Shown piece after piece: positions 1 through 10,252 of a stretch of DNA of 10,252 nt (position 1 is the stretch's first letter; each line of letters opens with the position of its first letter). The translations under genes and the position numbers were made by a program. The DNA is taken from the IMG/VR virus record IMGVR_UViG_2690316285_000005. The stretch is one strand, 5' to 3'. The stretch comes from a virus. Lineage: Duplodnaviria > Heunggongvirae > Uroviricota > Caudoviricetes. The notes below the pieces were generated by a model. The model searched no databases, had not been told where the DNA came from, and saw only the letters and a program-made list of their open reading frames with translations.

Positions 1-149
1 ACTCGGTGGCCAGTTTTTGTTGACCACTTCACTACGGTTTAGGTTCGAACACTACGGATGTACCTCAGTACTCACCATCAGTACCTACGGGTAACAGCTT
101 CATCAAAGTACCATCATCTCAAGCAGGCAATCCTGCCGGGGCGGATCTG

Positions 150-2129
150 ATGGGAGTAGGGCTTGTAGATGGCACTACTGTAAGTTCTCTTGCGATGACA
201 AAGACGGGTACTCTAAGTATCTATGCAAAGAACGCTACAACCGCCTGGACACGCATATATACCGCTACACAGATGGACGGGCGATACGTACCCCTTACAC
301 GTACCATCAACGGCCATGCACTCACGGCCAATTTAGTACTGAACAGTGAAGATACAGGTTCAGTACCTGATACACGTACTGTGAATGGTAAGCCTCTAAG
401 TGAGGATGTAGTACTTACCAGTACTGATACCGGCTCTGTACCAGATACACGGACAGTTAATGGTCATGTACTCAGTGAAGATATAGTACTGAGTAGTGAA
501 GATACAGGTTCAGTACCTGATACACGTATGGTCAACGGTCATGTACTCAGTGAGGATGTAGTACTTACCAGTACTGATGTTGGCTTAGGGAAGGTTACAG
601 ATGATGCCCAGCTTACGATAGCAGGTAATCTAAGTGATCTGGGGGACGTGGAAGAAGCACGTATTAACCTTGCTGTTTACTCAATGGATGAAGTAGATGC
701 AGAGGTAACGGCTTTAGCTGACAGTATTACTTCCCTTGATTCCGCTTCCATGAAGAAAGCGAGTAACCTTTCTGATCTATCCAGTCTCTCTACAGCACGT
801 ACTAACCTACAGGTGAACCGTTTGACTCAGGGTGCTACGTACACCGATCTGATGAGTAATGACCTGACTAACCGTATCCGAATTCAGGATAACGGGGCAT
901 GGGGTGCAAGTACTGGTACTGGATGGATTGCTTTAGGTATAGGTCAGGGGGGGACAGGGGCTACAGATGCTTTGAGTGCTCGCCTAAACTTTCAGGTGGA
1001 TCGCTTTAATCAAGGTAGTAATTTAACAACTATTAAATCCGCTGATTCTTCCGCTGCATTAGTGGTTTATGATGGAGGGCAATGGGGTTCAGCTACATAT
1101 ATTGCGGGTGCTTTCACTGGCTGGAAAGCATTAGCAATTCCGCAGGGCGGTACTGGTGTTAAGACTCAGGCTGAGTTATGGCCTGCGATTCGTCCTACGG
1201 GTGCAACTTCTTTAGCAGGAGATCCTGTCTCTGATTCTGACGCGACTACCAAACGCTGGGTTGAAAACTTGCTGAGTAGTCGTACTTCAGTTAGTCCTCA
1301 ATGGGATGTTATTGCTTCTTCCCCTTCCTCTACGGCAATTGGTAGTTATGTAACTGGAGGGCGTATTCGTTCGATATGCAACATTGGTACATCAACTGAA
1401 ATATCTGGTGGTTTTCGGGTTGGTAAAACGATGGGACAGACTGGACAGGCTGATCTCACCCTTTTTATTTCTGAAAATGGTGCAGAGGATAAACTATGGG
1501 GGCTAAAAGGGCCGACTGGAACGATCCTAACTGATGTTCAATCAGGATGGATGACTAATACCGCTGTTTCGGGACCGACAGATGCCAATACCATCACCTT
1601 TAACGGTATGTATGCAGGGCCAGGTGACTCAGGTATTAACTATAGTGAAAAATATTCCCCTTTATTGCACATGCAAAGATACCCAGGGGCAAATCGCTCT
1701 CAGCTTCAGATAGACGGTGGTGGTACTTTAAGAGTACGAGGCGGGAACGGTACAACATGGTTTGGATGGTTAGTAATGCAAGCTCAAGGTACATCAGGTC
1801 GTGAGTTTAAAAGAGACATAACTCCAGCAAATCCAGTTGAAGCATTAGATCGGATAATGTCACAAGATTTAGTAACGTTTATCTACAAGGATGATGAACA
1901 AGAAAGGGTTAGGTTTGGTGTTATCGCCGAAGATGCTGAGTTGACTGCTCCGCAGTACATTAAGCATGATGAAGAAACAGTTGAAATAGAAGGGGAGATT
2001 GTCACTCGTGATCATCCACGTGTTGATTTAAATCCAATAGTGATGGACTTGATGGGAGCTATTCAAGCCCAACAAGAAGAAATTAATCAGCTAAAAGATT
2101 TAGTACAACAGCTATTAAATAATAAATAA
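150..2129 (+). CDS. Phage fiber protein (tail or neck/collar fiber) with tandem fiber repeats and a C-terminal intramolecular chaperone (peptidase S74-like) domain
   Basis: 659-codon ORF. Residues ~51-146 are four 25-aa repeats (consensus approx. RTVNGxxLSEDVVLTSxDTGSVPDT) typical of phage fiber repeats. The C-terminal ~110 aa (SGREFKRDITPANPVEALDRIMSQDLVTFIYKDD...GVIAEDAELTAP...) matches, from memory, the endosialidase/T5 pb1-type chaperone domain with its S-x4-K spacing. The ATG at 150 has only a weak SD, and the frame is open upstream to 24 with no start codon, so the true start is uncertain. Confidence 0.7.
   Translation: MGVGLVDGTTVSSLAMTKTGTLSIYAKNATTAWTRIYTATQMDGRYVPLTRTINGHALTANLVLNSEDTGSVPDTRTVNGKPLSEDVVLTSTDTGSVPDTRTVNGHVLSEDIVLSSEDTGSVPDTRMVNGHVLSEDVVLTSTDVGLGKVTDDAQLTIAGNLSDLGDVEEARINLAVYSMDEVDAEVTALADSITSLDSASMKKASNLSDLSSLSTARTNLQVNRLTQGATYTDLMSNDLTNRIRIQDNGAWGASTGTGWIALGIGQGGTGATDALSARLNFQVDRFNQGSNLTTIKSADSSAALVVYDGGQWGSATYIAGAFTGWKALAIPQGGTGVKTQAELWPAIRPTGATSLAGDPVSDSDATTKRWVENLLSSRTSVSPQWDVIASSPSSTAIGSYVTGGRIRSICNIGTSTEISGGFRVGKTMGQTGQADLTLFISENGAEDKLWGLKGPTGTILTDVQSGWMTNTAVSGPTDANTITFNGMYAGPGDSGINYSEKYSPLLHMQRYPGANRSQLQIDGGGTLRVRGGNGTTWFGWLVMQAQGTSGREFKRDITPANPVEALDRIMSQDLVTFIYKDDEQERVRFGVIAEDAELTAPQYIKHDEETVEIEGEIVTRDHPRVDLNPIVMDLMGAIQAQQEEINQLKDLVQQLLNNK
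300..587 (+). repeat. In-frame tandem repeat, 75-nt units (25 aa), about 4 copies, arranged as a 150-nt A-B super-unit duplicated
   Basis: Exact 34-nt identity between 345-378 and 495-528 (agtgaagatacaggttcagtacctgatacacgta) and exact 30-nt identity between 399-428 and 549-578 (agtgaggatgtagtacttaccagtactgat), both at a 150-nt offset. The protein repeats are in register. Confidence 0.85.
1794..2126 (+). other. Putative autoproteolytic intramolecular chaperone domain of the fiber protein (candidate catalytic Ser at codon 1794-1796, Lys at 1809-1811)
   Basis: The motif T-S-G-R-E-F-K followed by DITPANPVEALDRI...LVTFIYKDD...FGVIAEDAELTAPQYI resembles the S-D-x-R-L-K ... ALDKL ... GFIAQEVEEV pattern of peptidase S74 chaperone domains, recalled from memory. 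A coiled-coil-like tail (QAQQEEINQLKDLVQQLL) follows. Confidence 0.5.
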
Positions 2130-2187: not shown

Positions 2188-2661
2188 ATGGCTATGGATA
2201 TTTTTTCCGGTGCTAACCTTACTGTAGAAGTAGGTTCAAGTGCTGGTAAAACAGTTGCTACTGACTTTGTAGAAGTACCAGAGGTAAACACCTTCAGTAC
2301 TTCAGGCTTTGAAAGTACTGTAATTAGCGTAAAAACATTCAATAATGCTTATGATCGTAAGCTATTGGGTACTAAGTCAATCCCGGACATTTCTCTTGCA
2401 GTTAACTACTTACCAGATAATGCAGTACATCAGAATTTAGAACAACTTGCAGACGATCAGAAACGTTGTCAGGTAAAACTAAGCTATTTTACCGATGCAA
2501 CTAAAAAAGAAGGTTTCTTTGTAATTTATACCTGCTTTGTTTCAAGTACCACTATCGGTGGTGATAAAGATGAAGTAGTAACTAAGACTTTCACCCTTGC
2601 AGTTGATGGTGAAGCAATTGATTCAGGTCTGATTACTCCAAAACCAGAATCGGGCGAATAA
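2188..2661 (+). CDS. Probable major tail (tube) protein
   Basis: 157-aa ORF with an AAGGA RBS about 9 nt upstream of the ATG. It sits immediately upstream of the chaperone pair and tape measure gene (conserved siphovirus synteny) and is followed by a strong terminator, consistent with a highly expressed structural gene. Acidic, Thr/Ser/Val-rich composition. The call rests on synteny and size; no motif was recognised. Confidence 0.6.
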   Translation: MAMDIFSGANLTVEVGSSAGKTVATDFVEVPEVNTFSTSGFESTVISVKTFNNAYDRKLLGTKSIPDISLAVNYLPDNAVHQNLEQLADDQKRCQVKLSYFTDATKKEGFFVIYTCFVSSTTIGGDKDEVVTKTFTLAVDGEAIDSGLITPKPESGE

Positions 2662-2699: not shown

Positions 2700-2712
2700 A
2701 TTGGAGATGAAA

Positions 2713-3012
2713 ATGAATTTAAACGAATTGAAGAAAAAACTACAACCAGAATTAAAACCACATGAAGTAATGGGTGAAATCATCTTTATTCATCGTCCAA
2801 ATGGTCAGGATTTCCAGAAATGCACTGATGTGGCTAAAACTCTAATCCTATGTGTAAAAGATGAAAATGGTGATCCTATCTTCGCAGAAGAAGATATTGA
2901 TGGACGAATTAATGTTAACTCTATTGATTTTGTAATCCAGAATGAAATTTACTCAGCAATTATTGCTTTAATCAATACTGCGAAACCTGTAGATGAAGTA
3001 GAAAAAAAGTAA
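2713..3012 (+). CDS. Tail assembly chaperone (lambda G-like), the zero-frame product
   Basis: Small acidic ORF directly upstream of the tape measure gene. GGAG at 2703-2706 is 6 nt upstream of the ATG at 2713, which I prefer over the TTG at 2701 or the ATG at 2707. It ends at TAA 3010-3012 immediately after the slippery heptamer. Confidence 0.75.
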   Translation: MNLNELKKKLQPELKPHEVMGEIIFIHRPNGQDFQKCTDVAKTLILCVKDENGDPIFAEEDIDGRINVNSIDFVIQNEIYSAIIALINTAKPVDEVEKK

Positions 3013-3407
3013 GAGGTGATATCGAATTAAAGTACTTTTGTAAGATGGTTAACAAAAGAGGCTTATCACCTGAAGAATACTTTAGTTTAGATCCTGATGT
3101 ACTCAATATGCTTATGATCTACGATACTTTTATAGAACCATCCGGTACGCAGATTGAAATGATGAAACATGCGTACCAGTGTTACTACACCACTATCAGT
3201 AATGGCAACCTAACACCAGAAGCAAGGAAAAGTATCAAGGTACAGGATTTTGATTTTCTTGATGTGCTTAGTGATAGTACTAAGAGTACTTCAGAGAAAG
3301 CTGAAGAAAGAAAATTAAAAACTAAAGAGGCTCAATCCAATGATATTAAATCTATAGGGGAGTTAATTAAATCTCAGGTATTAGGAAAGAAAAAGAATGG
3401 CAAATAA
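2713..3407 (+). CDS. Tail assembly chaperone frameshift fusion (lambda GT-like), produced by a -1 shift at 3003-3009
   Basis: The upstream frame (start 2713, residue 1 mod 3) and the downstream ORF (3045-3407, residue 0 mod 3) are related by a -1 shift. The predicted junction reads ...VDEVEKK / VRGDIELKYFCKMVNKRGLSPEEY..., giving a product of about 231 aa. Its end overlaps the tape measure start (3397) by 11 nt. Confidence 0.65.
3003..3009 (+). promoter_or_regulatory. Slippery heptamer A_AAA_AAG for -1 programmed ribosomal frameshifting
   Basis: In the chaperone frame the codons are gaa-aaa-aag-taa. The heptamer A AAA AAG (3003-3009) is the classic dnaX-type shift site. The -1 frame is open from 2997 (a stop lies at 2994-2996) through 3407, and the downstream ORF has no SD before its first ATG at 3045. 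Confidence 0.7.
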
Positions 3408-5620: not shown

Positions 5621-6193
5621 TTAGGGATTTTCCGTGTGATAAGACAAATATTGTGAAAGAGAAGATGAAAGGGTATAGAGATTGTAATACTCTTCCCGCA
5701 ATAATTTAACTTTAGGTGGTGAGTATTTAATATTGTATGCAAGCTGTGTTGAAAGAGTACGTAATCTCGATAATGAATAATAACTCTTTACGATGGCATC
5801 TACTTCTTTTTTTGGGAGTGATGCTAATTTTTCTAATTGGGAATAATATACATCATCATGCAAATAAGAAACGGCAGTTGCTACTCTTTTAATAGCTTCT
5901 GTATCTTCAGTTGGAAGAGGAATACATATTTCATATGTGCCTAACACCTGAGACTCATCGCCACCAGTAGCAAGAGCTAAAAGGTTATTGTTGATTTCGC
6001 TCAATAAGATTACACGCATCTTAAAAACATCATCTGAACTTTCTTTCCATTTATCATATGCGTTATAGCCTATTTGGCCTGCAAATAACAACATAGCAAC
6101 GATGACGGATGCAGCCTGCCAATCAAGCCTGTTAAAAAAAATACGAATCGAGGTTTTTAAATAAATAAAGAAAGAAGATATTCGAGGTAACAA
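5621..6193 (-). CDS. Hypothetical protein, probably membrane-anchored; moron-like accessory gene encoded antisense to the tail operon
   Basis: The only long ORF on either strand in the 584-bp gap between the tape measure stop (5610) and the next tail gene (6195), and it fills the gap exactly. Read from the TTG at 6193 (an AGGA lies about 8 nt upstream on the minus strand) it gives 190 aa with a hydrophobic segment WQAASVIVAMLLFAGQIGYNAY near residues 25-46. The region is visibly more AT-rich than the flanking genes. The start codon is uncertain: the first in-frame ATG corresponds to 6094-6092 but would cut the hydrophobic segment. No known domain was recognised. Confidence 0.5.
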   Translation of the reverse strand: MLPRISSFFIYLKTSIRIFFNRLDWQAASVIVAMLLFAGQIGYNAYDKWKESSDDVFKMRVILLSEINNNLLALATGGDESQVLGTYEICIPLPTEDTEAIKRVATAVSYLHDDVYYSQLEKLASLPKKEVDAIVKSYYSLSRLRTLSTQLAYNIKYSPPKVKLLREEYYNLYTLSSSLSQYLSYHTENP

Positions 6194-7375: not shown

Positions 7376-7779
7376 TGAAAAATCTACATAATGAAGTAAT
7401 GAGTATTATTCAGTACTCAATTGATAACCCATATAAGTATGGTGATAACGATTGCAACATTATAGTACTACGCCTTATTGATTTAATTAATGGTACTACA
7501 CAGTTAACTAATCGCCAGTATTCGAGCATTAAAGAAGGTATAGCAGGTTTAAACAAGGAAGGATGGAACCATACAGGGGAAATTGTTGAAGCGTACTGTA
7601 AGCCAGTACAAGCCACTATAGACGGTGATATCTGGTTAGATCCTGACAACCCATTAATTATGGCAGTAGTGGCATCTGGTCGGGTACTTGGAGTAAATGC
7701 TGATCATGATGGTTTCGAACTTCAACCAAAACCAACAGAGGGAACATATTACAGAGTAAGGAAACAGAGAGATGGGTAA
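7375..7779 (+). CDS. Tail protein with a putative NlpC/P60 (C40 peptidase) fold, resembling the C-terminal half of lambda gpK
   Basis: 134-aa ORF with the motif YKYGDNDCNIIVLRL (candidate catalytic Cys) and downstream GDIWL...VVASGRVLGVNADHDG (candidate His), resembling the gpK NlpC/P60 half (G.TDC...GDVLL...H). No JAMM/MPN motif was found. It overlaps the next gene by 8 nt. Confidence 0.5.
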   Translation: MKNLHNEVMSIIQYSIDNPYKYGDNDCNIIVLRLIDLINGTTQLTNRQYSSIKEGIAGLNKEGWNHTGEIVEAYCKPVQATIDGDIWLDPDNPLIMAVVASGRVLGVNADHDGFELQPKPTEGTYYRVRKQRDG

Positions 7780-10228
7780 GAGTTTAGGGGGCTTTTTTGG
7801 AGCCATAATTACGGCAGTTGTCGTCGCGGCTGCTGTGTACTTTTCAGGAGGTACAGCATTAGCAGCAATAGGTTGGGGTGCAGCAGCCGGATCTTTGTCA
7901 TTAGTTGCAAGTTCTATGTTAGGTCAAATCGGGGTTTCTGGATACGGTGATGTAGCAGACTCACTAAGTAGAAGTACTTCACCAACTACTGGATTACCCG
8001 TTATATACGGTGGAGAACTACCACATAAAAATGGTGTATCAGGCGGTTCCTTCATCCTAACCGGAAGCATAGTAGCCTGGTACAACGTACCAAATTCTGA
8101 TTCTCAGTACTTATTCTCAGAACAGGCTGTAGCATATGCTGGTGTAGAAAAGCATATCGAGCAAATCTATATTGATAATGAGCCAGTACTTGCAGTACCG
8201 ATTACAGCAGAGGGTGTAGTACCTAAAGAAAGTATTGCAGCGAAGTACCAGAACTATTTGCAATTAGAAGTACGATTTGGTGGTGACTATACGAGTACTA
8301 AAACTCTTGCTGCAAAATATGCTGGTTCGAAATGGACAAATAAATTTCTTGGTAAGGGTATTGTTAGTATCAGTACCGTTATCTTAAAAACTCAAGATTC
8401 ATTAGAAAATAATATTCTTGTTAATGATCAATTCGCTTTAACTGTAGAAATGAAAGGGCAGGTGATTTATGATTTTGTTGATGGTACTTATAAAGCAAGT
8501 AGTAACCCTCCTTCAATTATCTATGATTACTTAACAAATTCAATCTATGGTATGGGTATTGATCCATCATTGATTAATACCGATACGTTTGCAGAAACCG
8601 CAGCATATTGTGATGCTTTTGAATATTATGCTAATGGTGCTATCAGTTATCAAAAAACCTATAAAGATAATATTGAAAATATCTGTCAGTCATTTGGCGG
8701 CATCATGTATGTACATGCCGGACAAATCTGTATTACCACAGACCGCAAATCGGTATCCGTAGCCTCATTTGATGAGCGTAACATGGTAGGGGCGGTACAG
8801 GTTTCTACTTCTGGCGGTACTGACTACTTCAACGTAGTCGATTGCAAGTTTACTAACCCTGAATCGATGTACACCACTGACGTAGTACGTATCCCTTCCG
8901 ATATCACTACGGATGAAGCAGTACAGCATGATGGACAGGTCATAGCATTATCACGCGATTACTCATGGTCATATGATCAAGAGGTGATTGCAAAAATGGC
9001 TAACGTTGATGTACTCAAGGCTAAGTATGCCCTGCGTACTATCAGCTTCACCACAAGTGAAGGTTGGGATCTCGAAGTATGGGATGCGATCAATGTCAGC
9101 AATGAAGAACTCGCTATCTCAGGCAAATTTAAAGTACTCAATAAAGATATCAGCACCGATCAAGAGAACGTTGGCTATGTAACCATCACGGCAGTAGAAG
9201 CACCTGATGCAATGTATGATGGTATTGATCCGGGTATCTGGTCGCCTGGTGGGGTAATTAACTTCCCTGAACTACAGGTACTACCGCCAACGAACCTACA
9301 GGCAGTACGTAAGGGGAATACTACTTCTGGTTCAATCGTGGATCTTACCTGGGATGCTTCACCAGATCCGTATCTGCGTGGGTACTATGTTTACTACCGT
9401 CTTAACGGTTCCAGTACCTGGACGTATGCGGGGCAGACTGGCGTACAGAAGCTTGATTATGAATTATTTGGATTGTCTGATACTGCAAGCTACGACTTTT
9501 CGGTAGAGGCTTACAACAACTTAGGGCTGGTATCCAAGAAGCTTTCCCTAACTGGCATTGTTCCAACATTCAACTTTGCACTACCTGCGGTAACGCGTGT
9601 AGTACTGACAAATAAAACAGAATCAGCGTATGTAACTGACTCACCAGATTTCAATATTGCCTGGGATTCACAAAAAGATATCAGAGTGAATAACCGATCA
9701 TTTAGTGAGTACTTCAAGTATTACGTTATTAAAATCTATGACGGTACTAAATTAGTAGATACATTCTATACGCAAAGTAATGCCTTTAATTTCACTCTTG
9801 AAATGAACCGTCTGAAAGTACGTAAGCCTACCATTGGTATTATCGCACAGGGATTTAATGATGGTACATATTCAGAGGAAGTGAAAATAACCGTAGAGAA
9901 TAAACAGTGTGGTTTAGTAGAGGATGTTAGCTTTACGGGTGGTTTTGGTAATTTGTTTGCTTCATGGACTAAATCTACTGAACGTGATTATGCAGGTGCG
10001 ATTATCAGTATTGTTAATGGTACTAATACACGTATATTCACCAGTTATGCACCTGAATTTGATTCAATACCAAACATCACTGATGGTGAGTATAAGGTTA
10101 AGATGGGATTCTTTGATGTGTTTGGTACTGATGATATTCAATATTGTCCAGAACAAACAATCAGTATCAACTCCAAGTACCAGTTTACCGAAGATGATGC
10201 AGAGGCAATTAACGGGATTCTGAGGTAG
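7772..10228 (+). CDS. Central tail fiber / host specificity protein (lambda gpJ-like) with an N-terminal domain resembling the C-terminal part of lambda gpI
   Basis: 818-aa ORF. N-terminus GGFFGAIITAVVVAAAVYFSGGTALAAIGWGAAAG...LPVIYGGE resembles the Gly/Ala-rich hydrophobic C-terminal region of lambda tail assembly protein I. Segment SNPPSIIYDYLTNSIYGMGID...AAYCD (about 8500-8640) matches the conserved gpJ-family motif (NNMAWCLWDMLTHPRYGMG...QYCD). A fibronectin type III-like module (LTWDASPDPYLRGYYVYYRLNGSSTWTYAG...YDFSVEAYNNLGL) lies at about 9296-9550. Confidence 0.8.
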   Translation: MGKSLGGFFGAIITAVVVAAAVYFSGGTALAAIGWGAAAGSLSLVASSMLGQIGVSGYGDVADSLSRSTSPTTGLPVIYGGELPHKNGVSGGSFILTGSIVAWYNVPNSDSQYLFSEQAVAYAGVEKHIEQIYIDNEPVLAVPITAEGVVPKESIAAKYQNYLQLEVRFGGDYTSTKTLAAKYAGSKWTNKFLGKGIVSISTVILKTQDSLENNILVNDQFALTVEMKGQVIYDFVDGTYKASSNPPSIIYDYLTNSIYGMGIDPSLINTDTFAETAAYCDAFEYYANGAISYQKTYKDNIENICQSFGGIMYVHAGQICITTDRKSVSVASFDERNMVGAVQVSTSGGTDYFNVVDCKFTNPESMYTTDVVRIPSDITTDEAVQHDGQVIALSRDYSWSYDQEVIAKMANVDVLKAKYALRTISFTTSEGWDLEVWDAINVSNEELAISGKFKVLNKDISTDQENVGYVTITAVEAPDAMYDGIDPGIWSPGGVINFPELQVLPPTNLQAVRKGNTTSGSIVDLTWDASPDPYLRGYYVYYRLNGSSTWTYAGQTGVQKLDYELFGLSDTASYDFSVEAYNNLGLVSKKLSLTGIVPTFNFALPAVTRVVLTNKTESAYVTDSPDFNIAWDSQKDIRVNNRSFSEYFKYYVIKIYDGTKLVDTFYTQSNAFNFTLEMNRLKVRKPTIGIIAQGFNDGTYSEEVKITVENKQCGLVEDVSFTGGFGNLFASWTKSTERDYAGAIISIVNGTNTRIFTSYAPEFDSIPNITDGEYKVKMGFFDVFGTDDIQYCPEQTISINSKYQFTEDDAEAINGILR

Positions 10229-10252
10229 CCTGAGTTTAACGGACACTCCTTC

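What the first reader, a model, noticed from the sequence alone, without database searches (positions are those of the whole stretch)
1794..2129. Fiber carries a C-terminal intramolecular chaperone / self-cleaving domain
The last ~110 aa resemble the peptidase S74 chaperone domain found on endosialidase tailspikes, the T5 L-shaped fiber and phi29 and GA-1 appendages. That domain folds the trimeric beta-helix or fiber and then excises itself by a Ser-Lys dyad. Here the candidate Ser is at codon 1794-1796 (residue 549) and the Lys at 1809-1811 (residue 554), in T-S-G-R-E-F-K. The mature fiber would then be about 548 aa, not 659.
Basis: partly seen in the sequence, partly recalled or inferred. 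Interest (0 to 1): 0.4.

Follow-up and report, generated by a model that had tools for sequence, protein, structure and literature searches.

The report
Self-cleaving chaperone on truncated fibre gene
The last 111 codons of this Shigella sonnei prophage tail-fibre gene encode an ordinary peptidase-S74 folding-and-self-cutting domain, but an IS911 insertion has removed the gene's first 160 codons, so the "659-aa fibre" is a remnant.

Summary
ORF 150..2129 ends in a Peptidase_S74 (intramolecular chaperone) domain: Pfam PF13884 scores 34.5 bits against a cutoff of 22, E 2.6e-8. Ser549 (1794-1796) and Lys554 (1809-1811) sit in the catalytic Ser-x4-Lys columns. Lys is present in 90/90 related domains; the nucleophile column is Ser in 80 and Cys in 10. 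The closest solved relative is the phage DT57C L-shaped tail fibre (61% identity over 110 residues). A profile also reaches the MyRF ICA domain and the phage GA-1 gp12 chaperone. An AlphaFold model (pLDDT 87.9) matches MyRF, endosialidase NF and GA-1 chaperone structures.

The window is a whole draft contig of S. sonnei flanked by insertion-sequence ends: IS911 at 1-31 and IS600 at 10221-10252. IS911 sits after codon 160 of the fibre gene. Intact alleles carry a 160-residue N-terminal paralogue of the neighbouring tail tube protein. ATG150 is therefore an internal Met. The intact protein would be about 858 aa, with Ser748/Lys753 and a 747-aa mature form, not 659 and 548. Cleavage is inferred, not shown. 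The +1 residue is Gly rather than the usual Asp, as in DT57C. This is a new member of a well-known kind and of low interest.

The parts
1..31 (+). Right terminal inverted repeat of IS911 (IS3 family). It is the contig edge and the point where the fibre gene is interrupted; the junction is at 30-32.
   Evidence: A 35-base, 100% match to the 3' end of annotated IS911 copies in E. coli. Side-by-side comparison with the intact allele shows homology starting at ACTACGG. blastn aligns window 31.. to nt 479.. of the intact gene.
32..149 (+). In-frame remnant of the fibre gene upstream of the first ATG. It corresponds to codons about 160-199 of the intact allele and has no start codon of its own.
   Evidence: The translation YGLGSNTTDVPQYSPSVPTGNSFIKVPSSQAGNPAGADL is identical to P0001 residues 161-199. 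The ORF listing finds no ATG/GTG/TTG between the stop at 21-23 and position 150.
150..2129 (+). The 659-aa ORF: the 3' 77% of a prophage tail-fibre gene. ATG150 is codon 200 of the intact allele.
   Evidence: It is 96-100% identical to S. sonnei 'tail fiber domain-containing protein' P0001 and P0002. It hits PHROG tail-fibre families at E down to 5.6e-38.
351..578 (+). Tandem 75-nt (25-aa) repeats, 3.0 copies by TRF, encoding TRTVNGHxLSEDxVLxSxDTGSVPD. Copy number varies between strains.
   Evidence: TRF result. P0001 and P0003 carry one extra 25-aa unit.
1164..1298 (+). A conserved fibre segment (residues 339-383, TQAELWPAIRPTGATSLAGDPVSDSDATTKRWVENLL) shared with DT57C L-shaped fibre residues 542-585.
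   Evidence: phmmer domain 2, 32.1 bits, i-Evalue 5.1e-7.
1791..1796 (+). Predicted scissile bond Thr548|Ser549. Ser549 (1794-1796) is the predicted nucleophile and the first residue of the released domain.
   Evidence: Sequence read. Ser549 falls at Pfam profile position 1. It is in the same column as the first residue (SDERHK) of the GA-1 gp12 chaperone crystal chain 3gud_A and as the S587A position of MyRF 7dc3. That column is S in 80 and C in 10 of 90 related domains.
1809..1811 (+). Lys554, the predicted general base of the Ser-Lys dyad (Ser+5).
   Evidence: Invariant in A1 and K in 90/90 domains. It aligns to MyRF K592, which equals endoNF K916 (PMC8326128).
1794..2126 (+). Peptidase S74 / C-terminal intramolecular chaperone domain: 111 aa, 12.8 kDa, ending in a long helix (residues about 627-657) of the kind that forms the trimeric coiled coil.
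   Evidence: Pfam, PDB sequence and profile hits, AF2 model at pLDDT 87.9 with H98-128, Foldseek against PDB and BFVD, and molecular weight.
2188..2661 (+). The 157-aa tail tube protein. It is a paralogue of the N-terminal domain that the fibre gene has lost in this genome.
   Evidence: PF08813 Phage_tail_3 at 34 bits against a cutoff of 24.2. BLASTP gives 31% identity and E 6e-21 to residues 3-139 of the intact fibre allele.
10221..10252 (+). Terminal inverted repeat of IS600, the other contig edge. It supplies the TAG stop (10226-10228) of the truncated 818-aa J-like tail-tip ORF.
   Evidence: The 32-base stretch is 100% identical in 3143 E. coli genomes, often in several copies. It sits next to annotated IS600 transposase fragments. 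The J-like gene is 1100 aa in L003.

Best explanation
Window 1794-2126 encodes a canonical C-terminal intramolecular chaperone of the peptidase S74 family, at the end of a prophage tail-fibre gene.

Inferred mechanism in an intact allele: three chains associate through the C-terminal helices of this domain, which form a coiled coil. The domain then templates folding of the trimeric distal, receptor-binding part of the fibre. Once the trimer is correct, Ser549 (Ser748 in intact numbering), activated by Lys554 (Lys753), cuts the Thr548|Ser549 bond. This releases a 111-aa, 12.8-kDa fragment that is absent from the virion.

Shown here: in this particular genome (S. sonnei GCA_001250495.1) IS911 has inserted after codon 160. 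That separates the fibre from its N-terminal tail-tube-like anchoring domain. ORF 150-2129 is therefore a recent, otherwise undamaged gene remnant, not a native 659-aa fibre.

Inferred consequence: any product made from the internal ATG could still trimerise and self-cleave but could not be built into a tail. The J-like tip gene of the same prophage is also cut, by IS600.
For: Domain identity:
- Pfam PF13884 is above its cutoff.
- phmmer gives E 1e-33 and 61% identity to the DT57C L-shaped fibre C-terminus.
- Profile A1 hits MyRF ICA 7dc3 (9.7e-19), S16 gp37 6f45 (1.2e-15), 8jov (2.5e-11) and GA-1 gp12 CIMCD 3gud (4e-5).
- The AF2 model (pLDDT 87.9) has as its only significant PDB fold matches 7dc3 (TM 0.72), 3gw6 (endoNF chaperone) and 3gud.
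- There are 189 BFVD matches at E<=1e-3, led by the DT57C and Gostya9 L-shaped fibres and proteins named 'Peptidase S74 domain-containing'.

Catalytic columns:
- Lys is invariant (90/90), the nucleophile is S or C (90/90) and Gly590 is invariant.
- Ser549 aligns to the first residue of the released GA-1 chaperone and to MyRF S587; Lys554 aligns to MyRF K592.
- S587A and K592A abolish MyRF cleavage, and these residues equal endoNF S911/K916 (PMC8326128).
- T5 pb1 cleaves Thr1263-Ser1264, and S1264A blocks cleavage (PMC4690869).

Truncation:
- IS911 end at 1-31.
- The upstream in-frame sequence is identical to intact alleles P0001/P0004.
- Alignment offset of 478 nt.
- No start codon, sigma-70-like promoter or canonical Shine-Dalgarno before ATG150.
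- The window is the whole contig CXDI01000144.1.
- IS600 is at the other end.
Against: - No experiment bears on this protein. Cleavage is unproven even in its nearest characterised relative: for DT57C LtfA it is only predicted (PMC4728585), and the cryo-EM paper does not mention it (PMC10713586).
- The residue after the Ser is Gly, not the Asp found in 81/90 relatives. The effect on catalysis is unknown.
- The folding-sensor Arg sits 14 residues upstream of the Ser in endoNF (R897) and T5 pb1 (R1250). It has no counterpart at -14 here (Thr535); the nearest Arg residues are R530 and R528.
- The AF2 model is a monomer of a domain that works as an interlaced trimer.
- T5 pb1 and phi29 gp12 were not recovered by sequence or fold search.
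- The 5' fragment of the gene and the body of the IS are not in the window. The insertion is therefore inferred from one junction on a draft contig.
Confidence: 0.85

Rival explanations
1. The domain is a true S74 homologue that still acts as a trimerisation and folding module but is not cleaved off. It would stay on the mature fibre because this S-G subfamily has lost efficient autoproteolysis.
For: Gly replaces the near-universal +1 Asp; only 9/90 relatives do this. There is no Arg at the -14 'sensor' position (read). Cleavage has never been shown for any member of this subfamily, DT57C LtfA included (PMC4728585, PMC10713586).
Against: Ser and Lys are retained in all nine S-G members; without catalysis there would be little reason to conserve them. 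The -1 Thr matches the T5 pb1 scissile Thr-Ser (PMC4690869). MyRF cleaves without any stalk sensor residue (PMC8326128). In T5, the uncleaved S1264A protein did not compete with phage infection (PMC4690869), so retaining the domain is likely to be costly.
Confidence: 0.1
2. ORF 150-2129 is a genuine stand-alone 659-aa fibre gene starting at ATG150. It would mature to 548 aa.
For: The ORF is open and 100% identical to P0002 over 455 aa, with no frameshifts. Gene callers annotate it as a 659-aa protein.
Against: The 39 in-frame codons before the ATG are identical to the intact alleles and run straight into an IS911 end. Intact alleles in 92-member and other clusters are 160 residues longer at the N-terminus. 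There is no canonical SD and no promoter-like site upstream. The exact 659-aa product occurs on only 2 contigs.
Confidence: 0.04
3. The match is a chance resemblance: a generic C-terminal coiled coil plus a fortuitous S-x4-K, not an S74 domain.
For: Part of the similarity lies in a low-complexity heptad-like tail (QEEINQLKDLVQQLLNNK). NCBIfam gave no hit.
Against: The Pfam match covers the non-helical core (550-598) at E 2.6e-8. There is 61% identity to the DT57C fibre C-terminus. Profile hits reach four further solved ICA/S74 domains. The fold matches only ICA/CIMCD structures.
Confidence: 0.01

Closest known systems
LtfA, the L-shaped (lateral) tail fibre protein of T5-like phage DT57C (PDB 8hqz chain d, UniProt A0A0A7RZ88, 1076 aa), and Gostya9 Ltf
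   Same: The C-terminal S74 domain is 61% identical over 110 residues, including the unusual QGT-S-G-x-E/D-Y/F-K cleavage motif (Gly at +1). It is the top fold match, TM 0.81. A second shared block covers window residues 339-383 and LtfA 542-585. pfam13884 and an autocleavage site were predicted for LtfA and LtfB (PMC4728585).
   Different: The receptor-binding region between these two blocks is unrelated. The N-terminus of the intact Shigella allele is a tail-tube-protein paralogue, not the pb1/LtfA-type attachment domain. The host element is a lambda-like-tailed prophage (157-aa tube protein, 737-aa tape measure, J-like tip), not a T5-like virus.
Phage T5 pb1 L-shaped tail fibre intramolecular chaperone (residues 1264-1396; PMC4690869)
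   Same: Same architecture: a C-terminal chaperone of about 110-130 aa on a trimeric fibre, a Thr|Ser scissile bond, Lys at Ser+5 and a central coiled coil. Cleavage is proven there, and S1264A blocks it.
   Different: No detectable pairwise sequence hit here at E<=1-10 and no fold hit. T5 has Asp at +1 and a sensor Arg1250 at -14; the window has Gly and Thr at those positions.
Endosialidase NF (phage K1F) C-terminal intramolecular chaperone domain (PDB 3GW6), the founder of MEROPS S74 / Pfam PF13884
   Same: It belongs to the same Pfam family, which the window matches above its cutoff. Fold match at Foldseek probability 1.00 and E 2e-3. The Ser911/Lys916 dyad corresponds to Ser549/Lys554 through MyRF (PMC8326128).
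   Different: About 15% identity. endoNF has much longer beta-hairpin 'tentacles', giving only TM 0.5 and a large rmsd. Its upstream partner is a triple-beta-helix tailspike with enzyme activity, not a fibre.
Phage GA-1 gp12 neck appendage chaperone (PDB 3GUD) and the MyRF ICA domain (PDB 7DC3)
   Same: Profile hits at E 4e-5 and 9.7e-19. The 3GUD chain starts exactly at the column of Ser549. MyRF S587(A) and K592 align to Ser549 and Lys554. 7DC3 is the best solved-structure fold match, TM 0.72.
   Different: Distant homologues, 20-22% identical. MyRF is a eukaryotic membrane-bound transcription factor. GA-1 gp12 is a podovirus appendage.

Membership tests
Peptidase S74 / C-terminal intramolecular chaperone (Pfam PF13884; ICA domain) | Significant match to the family profile above the curated threshold | tested here: met
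   34.5 bits against a cutoff of 22, E 2.6e-8; the domain alone gives 37.8 bits.
Peptidase S74 / C-terminal intramolecular chaperone (Pfam PF13884; ICA domain) | Located at the extreme C-terminus of a phage fibre, spike or appendage protein | tested here: met
   The domain covers residues 549-659 of 659. The protein hits PHROG tail-fibre families and lies in a tail gene module.
Peptidase S74 / C-terminal intramolecular chaperone (Pfam PF13884; ICA domain) | Nucleophilic Ser at the N-terminal boundary of the domain, equivalent to endoNF S911, T5 S1264 and MyRF S587 | tested here: met
   Ser549 is at profile position 1. It is in the same column as the first residue of 3gud_A and as MyRF S587A. 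The column is S in 80 and C in 10 of 90.
Peptidase S74 / C-terminal intramolecular chaperone (Pfam PF13884; ICA domain) | Catalytic Lys five residues after the Ser, equivalent to endoNF K916, T5 K1269 and MyRF K592 | tested here: met
   Lys554 is invariant in 90/90 and aligns to MyRF K592.
Peptidase S74 / C-terminal intramolecular chaperone (Pfam PF13884; ICA domain) | The fold: a small alpha/beta body, a beta-hairpin and a long C-terminal helix for a trimeric coiled coil | tested here: met
   The AF2 monomer model has pLDDT 87.9, strands 75-84 and 87-96, and helix 98-128. Its only significant PDB matches are 7dc3, 3gw6 and 3gud. There are 189 BFVD matches.
Peptidase S74 / C-terminal intramolecular chaperone (Pfam PF13884; ICA domain) | Homotrimerisation and actual autoproteolytic release of the domain | not testable with these tools
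   This needs expression followed by SDS-PAGE and mass spectrometry, with S549A and K554A mutants.
Peptidase S74 / C-terminal intramolecular chaperone (Pfam PF13884; ICA domain) | Asp immediately after the Ser. This is the consensus S-D, typical of the family but not proven essential. | tested here: not met
   The window has Gly550. The column is D in 81 and G in 9 of 90. The G variant is shared with DT57C LtfA.
Peptidase S74 / C-terminal intramolecular chaperone (Pfam PF13884; ICA domain) | Upstream folding-sensor Arg from the neighbouring chain (endoNF R897 and T5 R1250, both at Ser-14). It is present in some members and absent in MyRF. | tested here: inconclusive
   Position -14 is Thr535. 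Arg is found at -19 (R530) and -21 (R528), as read. Equivalence cannot be judged without a trimer structure. MyRF needs no such residue (PMC8326128).
T5-type L-shaped tail fibre (pb1 / LtfA family) | N-terminal pb1/LtfA-type tail-attachment domain | tested here: not met
   The window ORF has no N-terminus of its own. Intact alleles start with a tail-tube-protein paralogue, 31% identical to the PF08813 tube protein at E 6e-21. Similarity to 8hqz_d is limited to two C-terminal blocks.
Intact, expressible structural gene of a functional prophage | A complete reading frame with its native start, in a prophage with an intact tail module | tested here: not met
   IS911 follows codon 160. The J-like gene is truncated by IS600. 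Sister genomes carry other lesions: a W344 stop in the fibre and an IS in the tape measure gene.

The most novel reading that the evidence does not exclude
The intact form of this gene, seen in other S. sonnei and enterobacterial prophages, fuses a duplicated tail-tube-protein domain directly to a roughly 700-aa fibre that is folded by an S74 chaperone. If the tube-like domain is built into a ring of the tail tube or neck, the fibre would be covalently part of the tube instead of docking onto a collar or baseplate adaptor. Pairs of three chains from a hexameric ring would be zipped into trimers by the chaperone. A second, smaller possibility is that the S-G cleavage motif shared with DT57C marks a subfamily with a modified, sensor-independent cleavage trigger like that of MyRF.
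Probability: 0.2. Interest if true: 0.5.

Novelty: new member of a known kind. Interest (0 to 1): 0.15.

Why it matters
For annotation, this ORF should be labelled as the 3' fragment of an IS911-disrupted tail-fibre pseudogene with a C-terminal S74 intramolecular chaperone domain. Its predicted cleavage site is Thr548|Ser549. It should not be labelled a 659-aa fibre.

For anyone reusing the receptor-binding tip, for example in engineered phages or tailocins against Shigella or E. coli, the domain boundary says where the mature protein ends. It also says the chaperone must be kept in the expression construct.

Scientifically, the S74 domain adds nothing new, because hundreds of enterobacterial fibres carry it. 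The only mildly unusual points are the S-G motif and the tube-paralogue N-terminus of the intact alleles. The tube-paralogue N-terminus lies outside the window.

Tried and rejected
- Megablast of the whole window against GenBank phages found no related phage, only a 44-base match at the 3' edge that turned out to be the IS600 end.
- NCBIfam gave no family for the ORF.
- Pairwise phmmer of the domain against PDB did not reach T5 pb1, endoNF or phi29 gp12. The profile search reached MyRF, S16 gp37, 8jov and GA-1 but still not T5 pb1 or phi29.
- The weak Pfam GldM_2nd and PorM PDB hits (residues 41-107; 22.4 bits, below the 24.4 cutoff; PDB E about 0.04) fall on the 25-aa tandem repeats. I rejected them as repeat-driven noise.
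- I looked for experimental proof of cleavage in the nearest relative. The DT57C cryo-EM paper has no mention of a chaperone or fibre cleavage. The K1F deep-mutational-scan preprint gave no per-residue statement on the +1 Asp.
- One literature search for tube-protein/fibre fusions found nothing on point. That is a single keyword search and is not evidence of novelty.
- A promoter and terminator scan of 1-2300 found no promoter-like site upstream of ATG150.
- I considered that the contig-edge IS sequence could be an assembly artefact. I rejected this as the main reading because the IS-to-gene junction lies inside contiguous sequence. Only long reads or PCR can settle it.
Full report
**1. The observation**

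The window has a + strand ORF at 150..2129 encoding 659 aa. Reading the DNA gives aca tca ggt cgt gag ttt aaa at 1791-1811.

The resemblance to peptidase S74 is statistically solid. Pfam PF13884 (Peptidase_S74, 'Chaperone of endosialidase') matches residues 550-598 to profile positions 2-51 of 58. The score is 34.5 bits against a gathering cutoff of 22, with E 2.6e-8. The last 135 residues alone score 37.8 bits. Ser549 therefore falls on profile position 1. The public protein collection already lists PF13884 for this exact product.

**2. Evidence that Ser549 and Lys554 are the catalytic pair**

- *Closest solved relative.* phmmer against all PDB sequences gives E 1e-33 to chain d of 8hqz, the 1076-aa L-shaped tail fibre protein of the T5-like phage DT57C. 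The alignment covers 110 residues at 61% identity. It includes the motif QGT-S-G-x-E-Y/F-K.
- *Conservation.* I took the C-terminal domains of homologues from a 5.8-billion-protein search and aligned 19 non-redundant ones (A1). Lys554 and Gly590 are invariant. Ser549 is present in 18 of 19. Over all 91 domains recovered with the A1 profile among the 120 best hits (one has a gap at these columns), the nucleophile column is Ser in 80 and Cys in 10, the Lys column is 90/90, and Gly590 is 90/90.
- *Alignment to experimentally defined sites.* The A1 profile searched against PDB sequences hits the MyRF ICA domain 7dc3 (E 9.7e-19), phage S16 gp37 6f45 (1.2e-15), tail fibre 8jov (2.5e-11) and the GA-1 gp12 chaperone 3gud (4e-5). 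The 3gud chain, labelled an intramolecular chaperone, begins SDERHK exactly at the Ser549 column. The S587A residue of the MyRF crystal construct lies in that same column, and MyRF K592 lies in the Lys554 column.
- *Published mutational data.* MyRF is cleaved between P586 and S587. S587A and K592A abolish cleavage, and these residues are equivalent to endosialidase NF S911/K916 (PMC8326128). T5 pb1 is cleaved at Thr1263-Ser1264, S1264A blocks cleavage, and Lys1269 activates the Ser (PMC4690869).
- *Predicted fold.* An AlphaFold2 model of residues 530-659, built on A1, has mean pLDDT 87.9. It shows a small alpha/beta body, a beta-hairpin and a 31-residue terminal helix. Foldseek against the PDB returns only ICA/CIMCD structures as significant matches: 7dc3 (TM 0.72), 3gw6 (the endoNF chaperone) and 3gud. 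Against predicted viral structures there are 189 matches at E<=1e-3. These are led by the DT57C and Gostya9 L-shaped fibres and many proteins named 'Peptidase S74 domain-containing' or 'Intramolecular chaperone auto-processing domain containing'.

**3. What the gene really is**

The window is the complete 10,252-bp contig CXDI01000144.1 of assembly GCA_001250495.1. Its nearest protein relatives are annotated as Shigella sonnei. Both edges of the contig are insertion-sequence ends.

*Left edge.* Bases 1-31 (…GACCACTTCA) are the right inverted repeat of IS911. They match annotated IS911 copies at 100% identity, just after the end of the transposase gene.

*Right edge.* Bases 10221-10252 (TGAGGTAGCCTGAGTTTAACGGACACTCCTTC) are the IS600 terminal repeat. 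This stretch is 100% identical in 3143 E. coli genomes and sits next to annotated IS600 transposase fragments. The TAG that ends the 818-aa J-like ORF lies inside the IS600 repeat. The same gene is 1100 aa in another S. sonnei genome.

*The interrupted fibre gene.* In frame upstream of ATG150 the window reads YGLGSNTTDVPQYSPSVPTGNSFIKVPSSQAGNPAGADL. This is identical to residues 161-199 of the S. sonnei protein P0001 and nearly identical in P0004. Both of those begin 160 residues earlier with MSDIFSGRELSV…. blastn aligns window 31.. with nucleotide 479.. of the intact gene. A direct comparison shows the sequences diverge exactly where the IS911 end begins. No ATG, GTG or TTG lies between the stop at 21-23 and position 150. 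There is also no promoter-like site and no canonical Shine-Dalgarno sequence upstream.

ATG150 is therefore internal Met200 of a gene cut by IS911 after codon 160. Joining P0001 residues 1-160 to window 33-2126 gives an 858-aa, 91.7-kDa protein. The dyad becomes Ser748/Lys753, the mature part is 747 aa (78.9 kDa) and the released part is 111 aa (12.8 kDa).

The rest of the ORF is undamaged; it is 100% identical to P0002 over 455 aa. The insertion is therefore recent. The exact 659-aa product occurs on only 2 contigs.

*Other lesions in sister genomes.* A TGG-to-TAG change at window position 1180 (W344 to stop) splits the fibre gene into 622 aa and 286 aa. An IS also sits in the tape measure gene at about window 3803. 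This is a decaying prophage in an IS-rich genome.

**4. Anatomy and context**

The remnant contains, in order:
- four 25-aa repeats (TRF reports 3.0 copies of a 75-nt unit at 351-578; P0001 has one more unit);
- a central region rich in fibre motifs of the NLSDL…ARxNL and GGTGA type;
- a block (residues 339-383) shared with DT57C LtfA 542-585;
- a distal region of about 165 aa whose only close relatives among the best hits are annotated S. sonnei proteins;
- the S74 domain.

Downstream lie a lambda-like tail module: a 157-aa tube protein (PF08813), two assembly-chaperone ORFs, a 737-aa tape measure protein, distal-tail and tip proteins, and the J-like protein.

The missing N-terminus of the intact fibre is 31% identical (E 6e-21) to that 157-aa tube protein. 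The intact gene is therefore a tube-protein paralogue fused to a fibre, placed immediately upstream of the tube gene. This N-terminal module is rare. It gave 10 hits in the large protein collection, in proteins of 136-430 aa, and one GenBank phage record, DCP80, at 25% identity.

**5. Mechanism**

*Shown here:*
- domain identity;
- conservation of the dyad;
- the predicted fold;
- the IS truncation.

*Inferred from the family (PMC4690869, PMC8326128):*
- Three chains nucleate through the C-terminal coiled coil.
- The chaperone promotes folding of the trimeric distal fibre.
- Lys554 then activates Ser549 to cut Thr548|Ser549, and the 12.8-kDa trimeric cap leaves, exposing the receptor-binding tip. 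In T5, only the processed protein competed with phage infection.

*Caveats:*
- The +1 residue is Gly rather than Asp. Only 9 of 90 relatives share this, all in the DT57C-like subgroup.
- There is no Arg at the -14 'folding sensor' position used by endoNF and T5. MyRF does without one.
- Cleavage has never been demonstrated in this subgroup.
- In this strain the product, if made at all, lacks its anchoring domain.

**6. Comparison with known families, and novelty**

The domain passes the membership tests for Pfam PF13884 / MEROPS S74 that can be run in silico: profile match, position in the protein, Ser, Lys and fold. Trimerisation and cleavage cannot be tested with these tools.

The protein is not a member of the T5 pb1/LtfA fibre family as a whole. 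Only two C-terminal blocks are shared, and the N-terminus is of a different kind.

NCBI already names close homologues 'tail fiber domain-containing protein' or 'pyocin knob domain-containing S74 family peptidase'. This is a new member of a well-known kind. The finding is correct in substance but ordinary, and its size inference is wrong because the gene is an IS-truncated remnant.

The one less ordinary aspect is the tube-paralogue/fibre fusion of the intact alleles. It lies outside the window and was examined only at the sequence level.

**Scores**

- Interest: 0.15.
- Confidence in the best explanation: 0.85.
- Most novel reading not excluded: a fibre covalently built into the tail tube or neck through a duplicated tube domain, and/or a sensor-independent S-G cleavage variant. 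Probability about 0.2; interest if true about 0.5.

Noticed in passing
window 1-31 (junction at 30-32): The IS911 right inverted repeat forms the left contig edge and interrupts the fibre gene after codon 160. The window is a complete S. sonnei draft contig (CXDI01000144.1).
   Followed up: yes
window 10221-10252; ORF 7772..10228: The IS600 terminal repeat forms the right contig edge. The stop codon of the J-like tail-tip ORF (818 aa) lies inside it, so this gene is truncated too; it is 1100 aa in L003.
   Followed up: yes
L007 3449-6064 (P0001 residues 1-139) compared with window 2188-2661: Intact alleles of the fibre start with a domain 31% identical (E 6e-21) to the adjacent 157-aa tail tube protein (PF08813). 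This makes them a tube-protein paralogue fused to a long fibre. The module is rare: 10 hits in the big protein search and one GenBank phage record.
   Followed up: partly
homologues P0071, P0074, P0080-P0082, P0086-P0089 and P0105 (about 115 aa from the C-terminus): A subfamily of S74 domains has Cys instead of the nucleophilic Ser (motif NPN-C-DIKL-K), with Lys still at +5. That is 10 of 90 domains and suggests a possible Cys-Lys variant of the self-cleaving dyad.
   Followed up: partly
window 351-578: A 75-nt (25-aa) tandem repeat, TRTVNGHxLSEDxVLxSxDTGSVPD, whose copy number differs between S. sonnei strains; P0001 and P0003 have one extra unit. It produces spurious weak hits to GldM/PorM domains.
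   Followed up: partly
L003/L004 11867-11869 (window 1180); L003 14503-15671 (window about 3803): Other S. sonnei genomes carry different lesions in the same prophage. A TGG-to-TAG nonsense mutation (W344 to stop) splits the fibre into 622 aa and 286 aa, there is a 165-nt in-frame duplication, and an IS sits inside the tape measure gene.
   Followed up: partly
window 5621-6193, minus strand: A 190-aa ORF lies on the opposite strand, wedged between the tape measure and distal tail genes. It hits PHROG 3829 (unknown function, E 1e-5). It may be a moron or accessory gene.
   Followed up: no
L010 (PQ671644.1 Escherichia phage DCP80, record 8763-13136): This is the only GenBank phage record with a similar tube-like N-terminus. 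It has two large such proteins (698 and 745 aa) in a siphovirus-style module, although the 141-kb record is classified as Straboviridae. The record may be chimeric or misclassified.
   Followed up: no
window 2701-3012 and 3045-3407: Two small ORFs in different frames lie between the tube and tape measure genes. The first hits the PHROG tail assembly chaperone family. This is the usual position of a G/GT-type programmed frameshift pair. I did not look for a slippery site.
   Followed up: no
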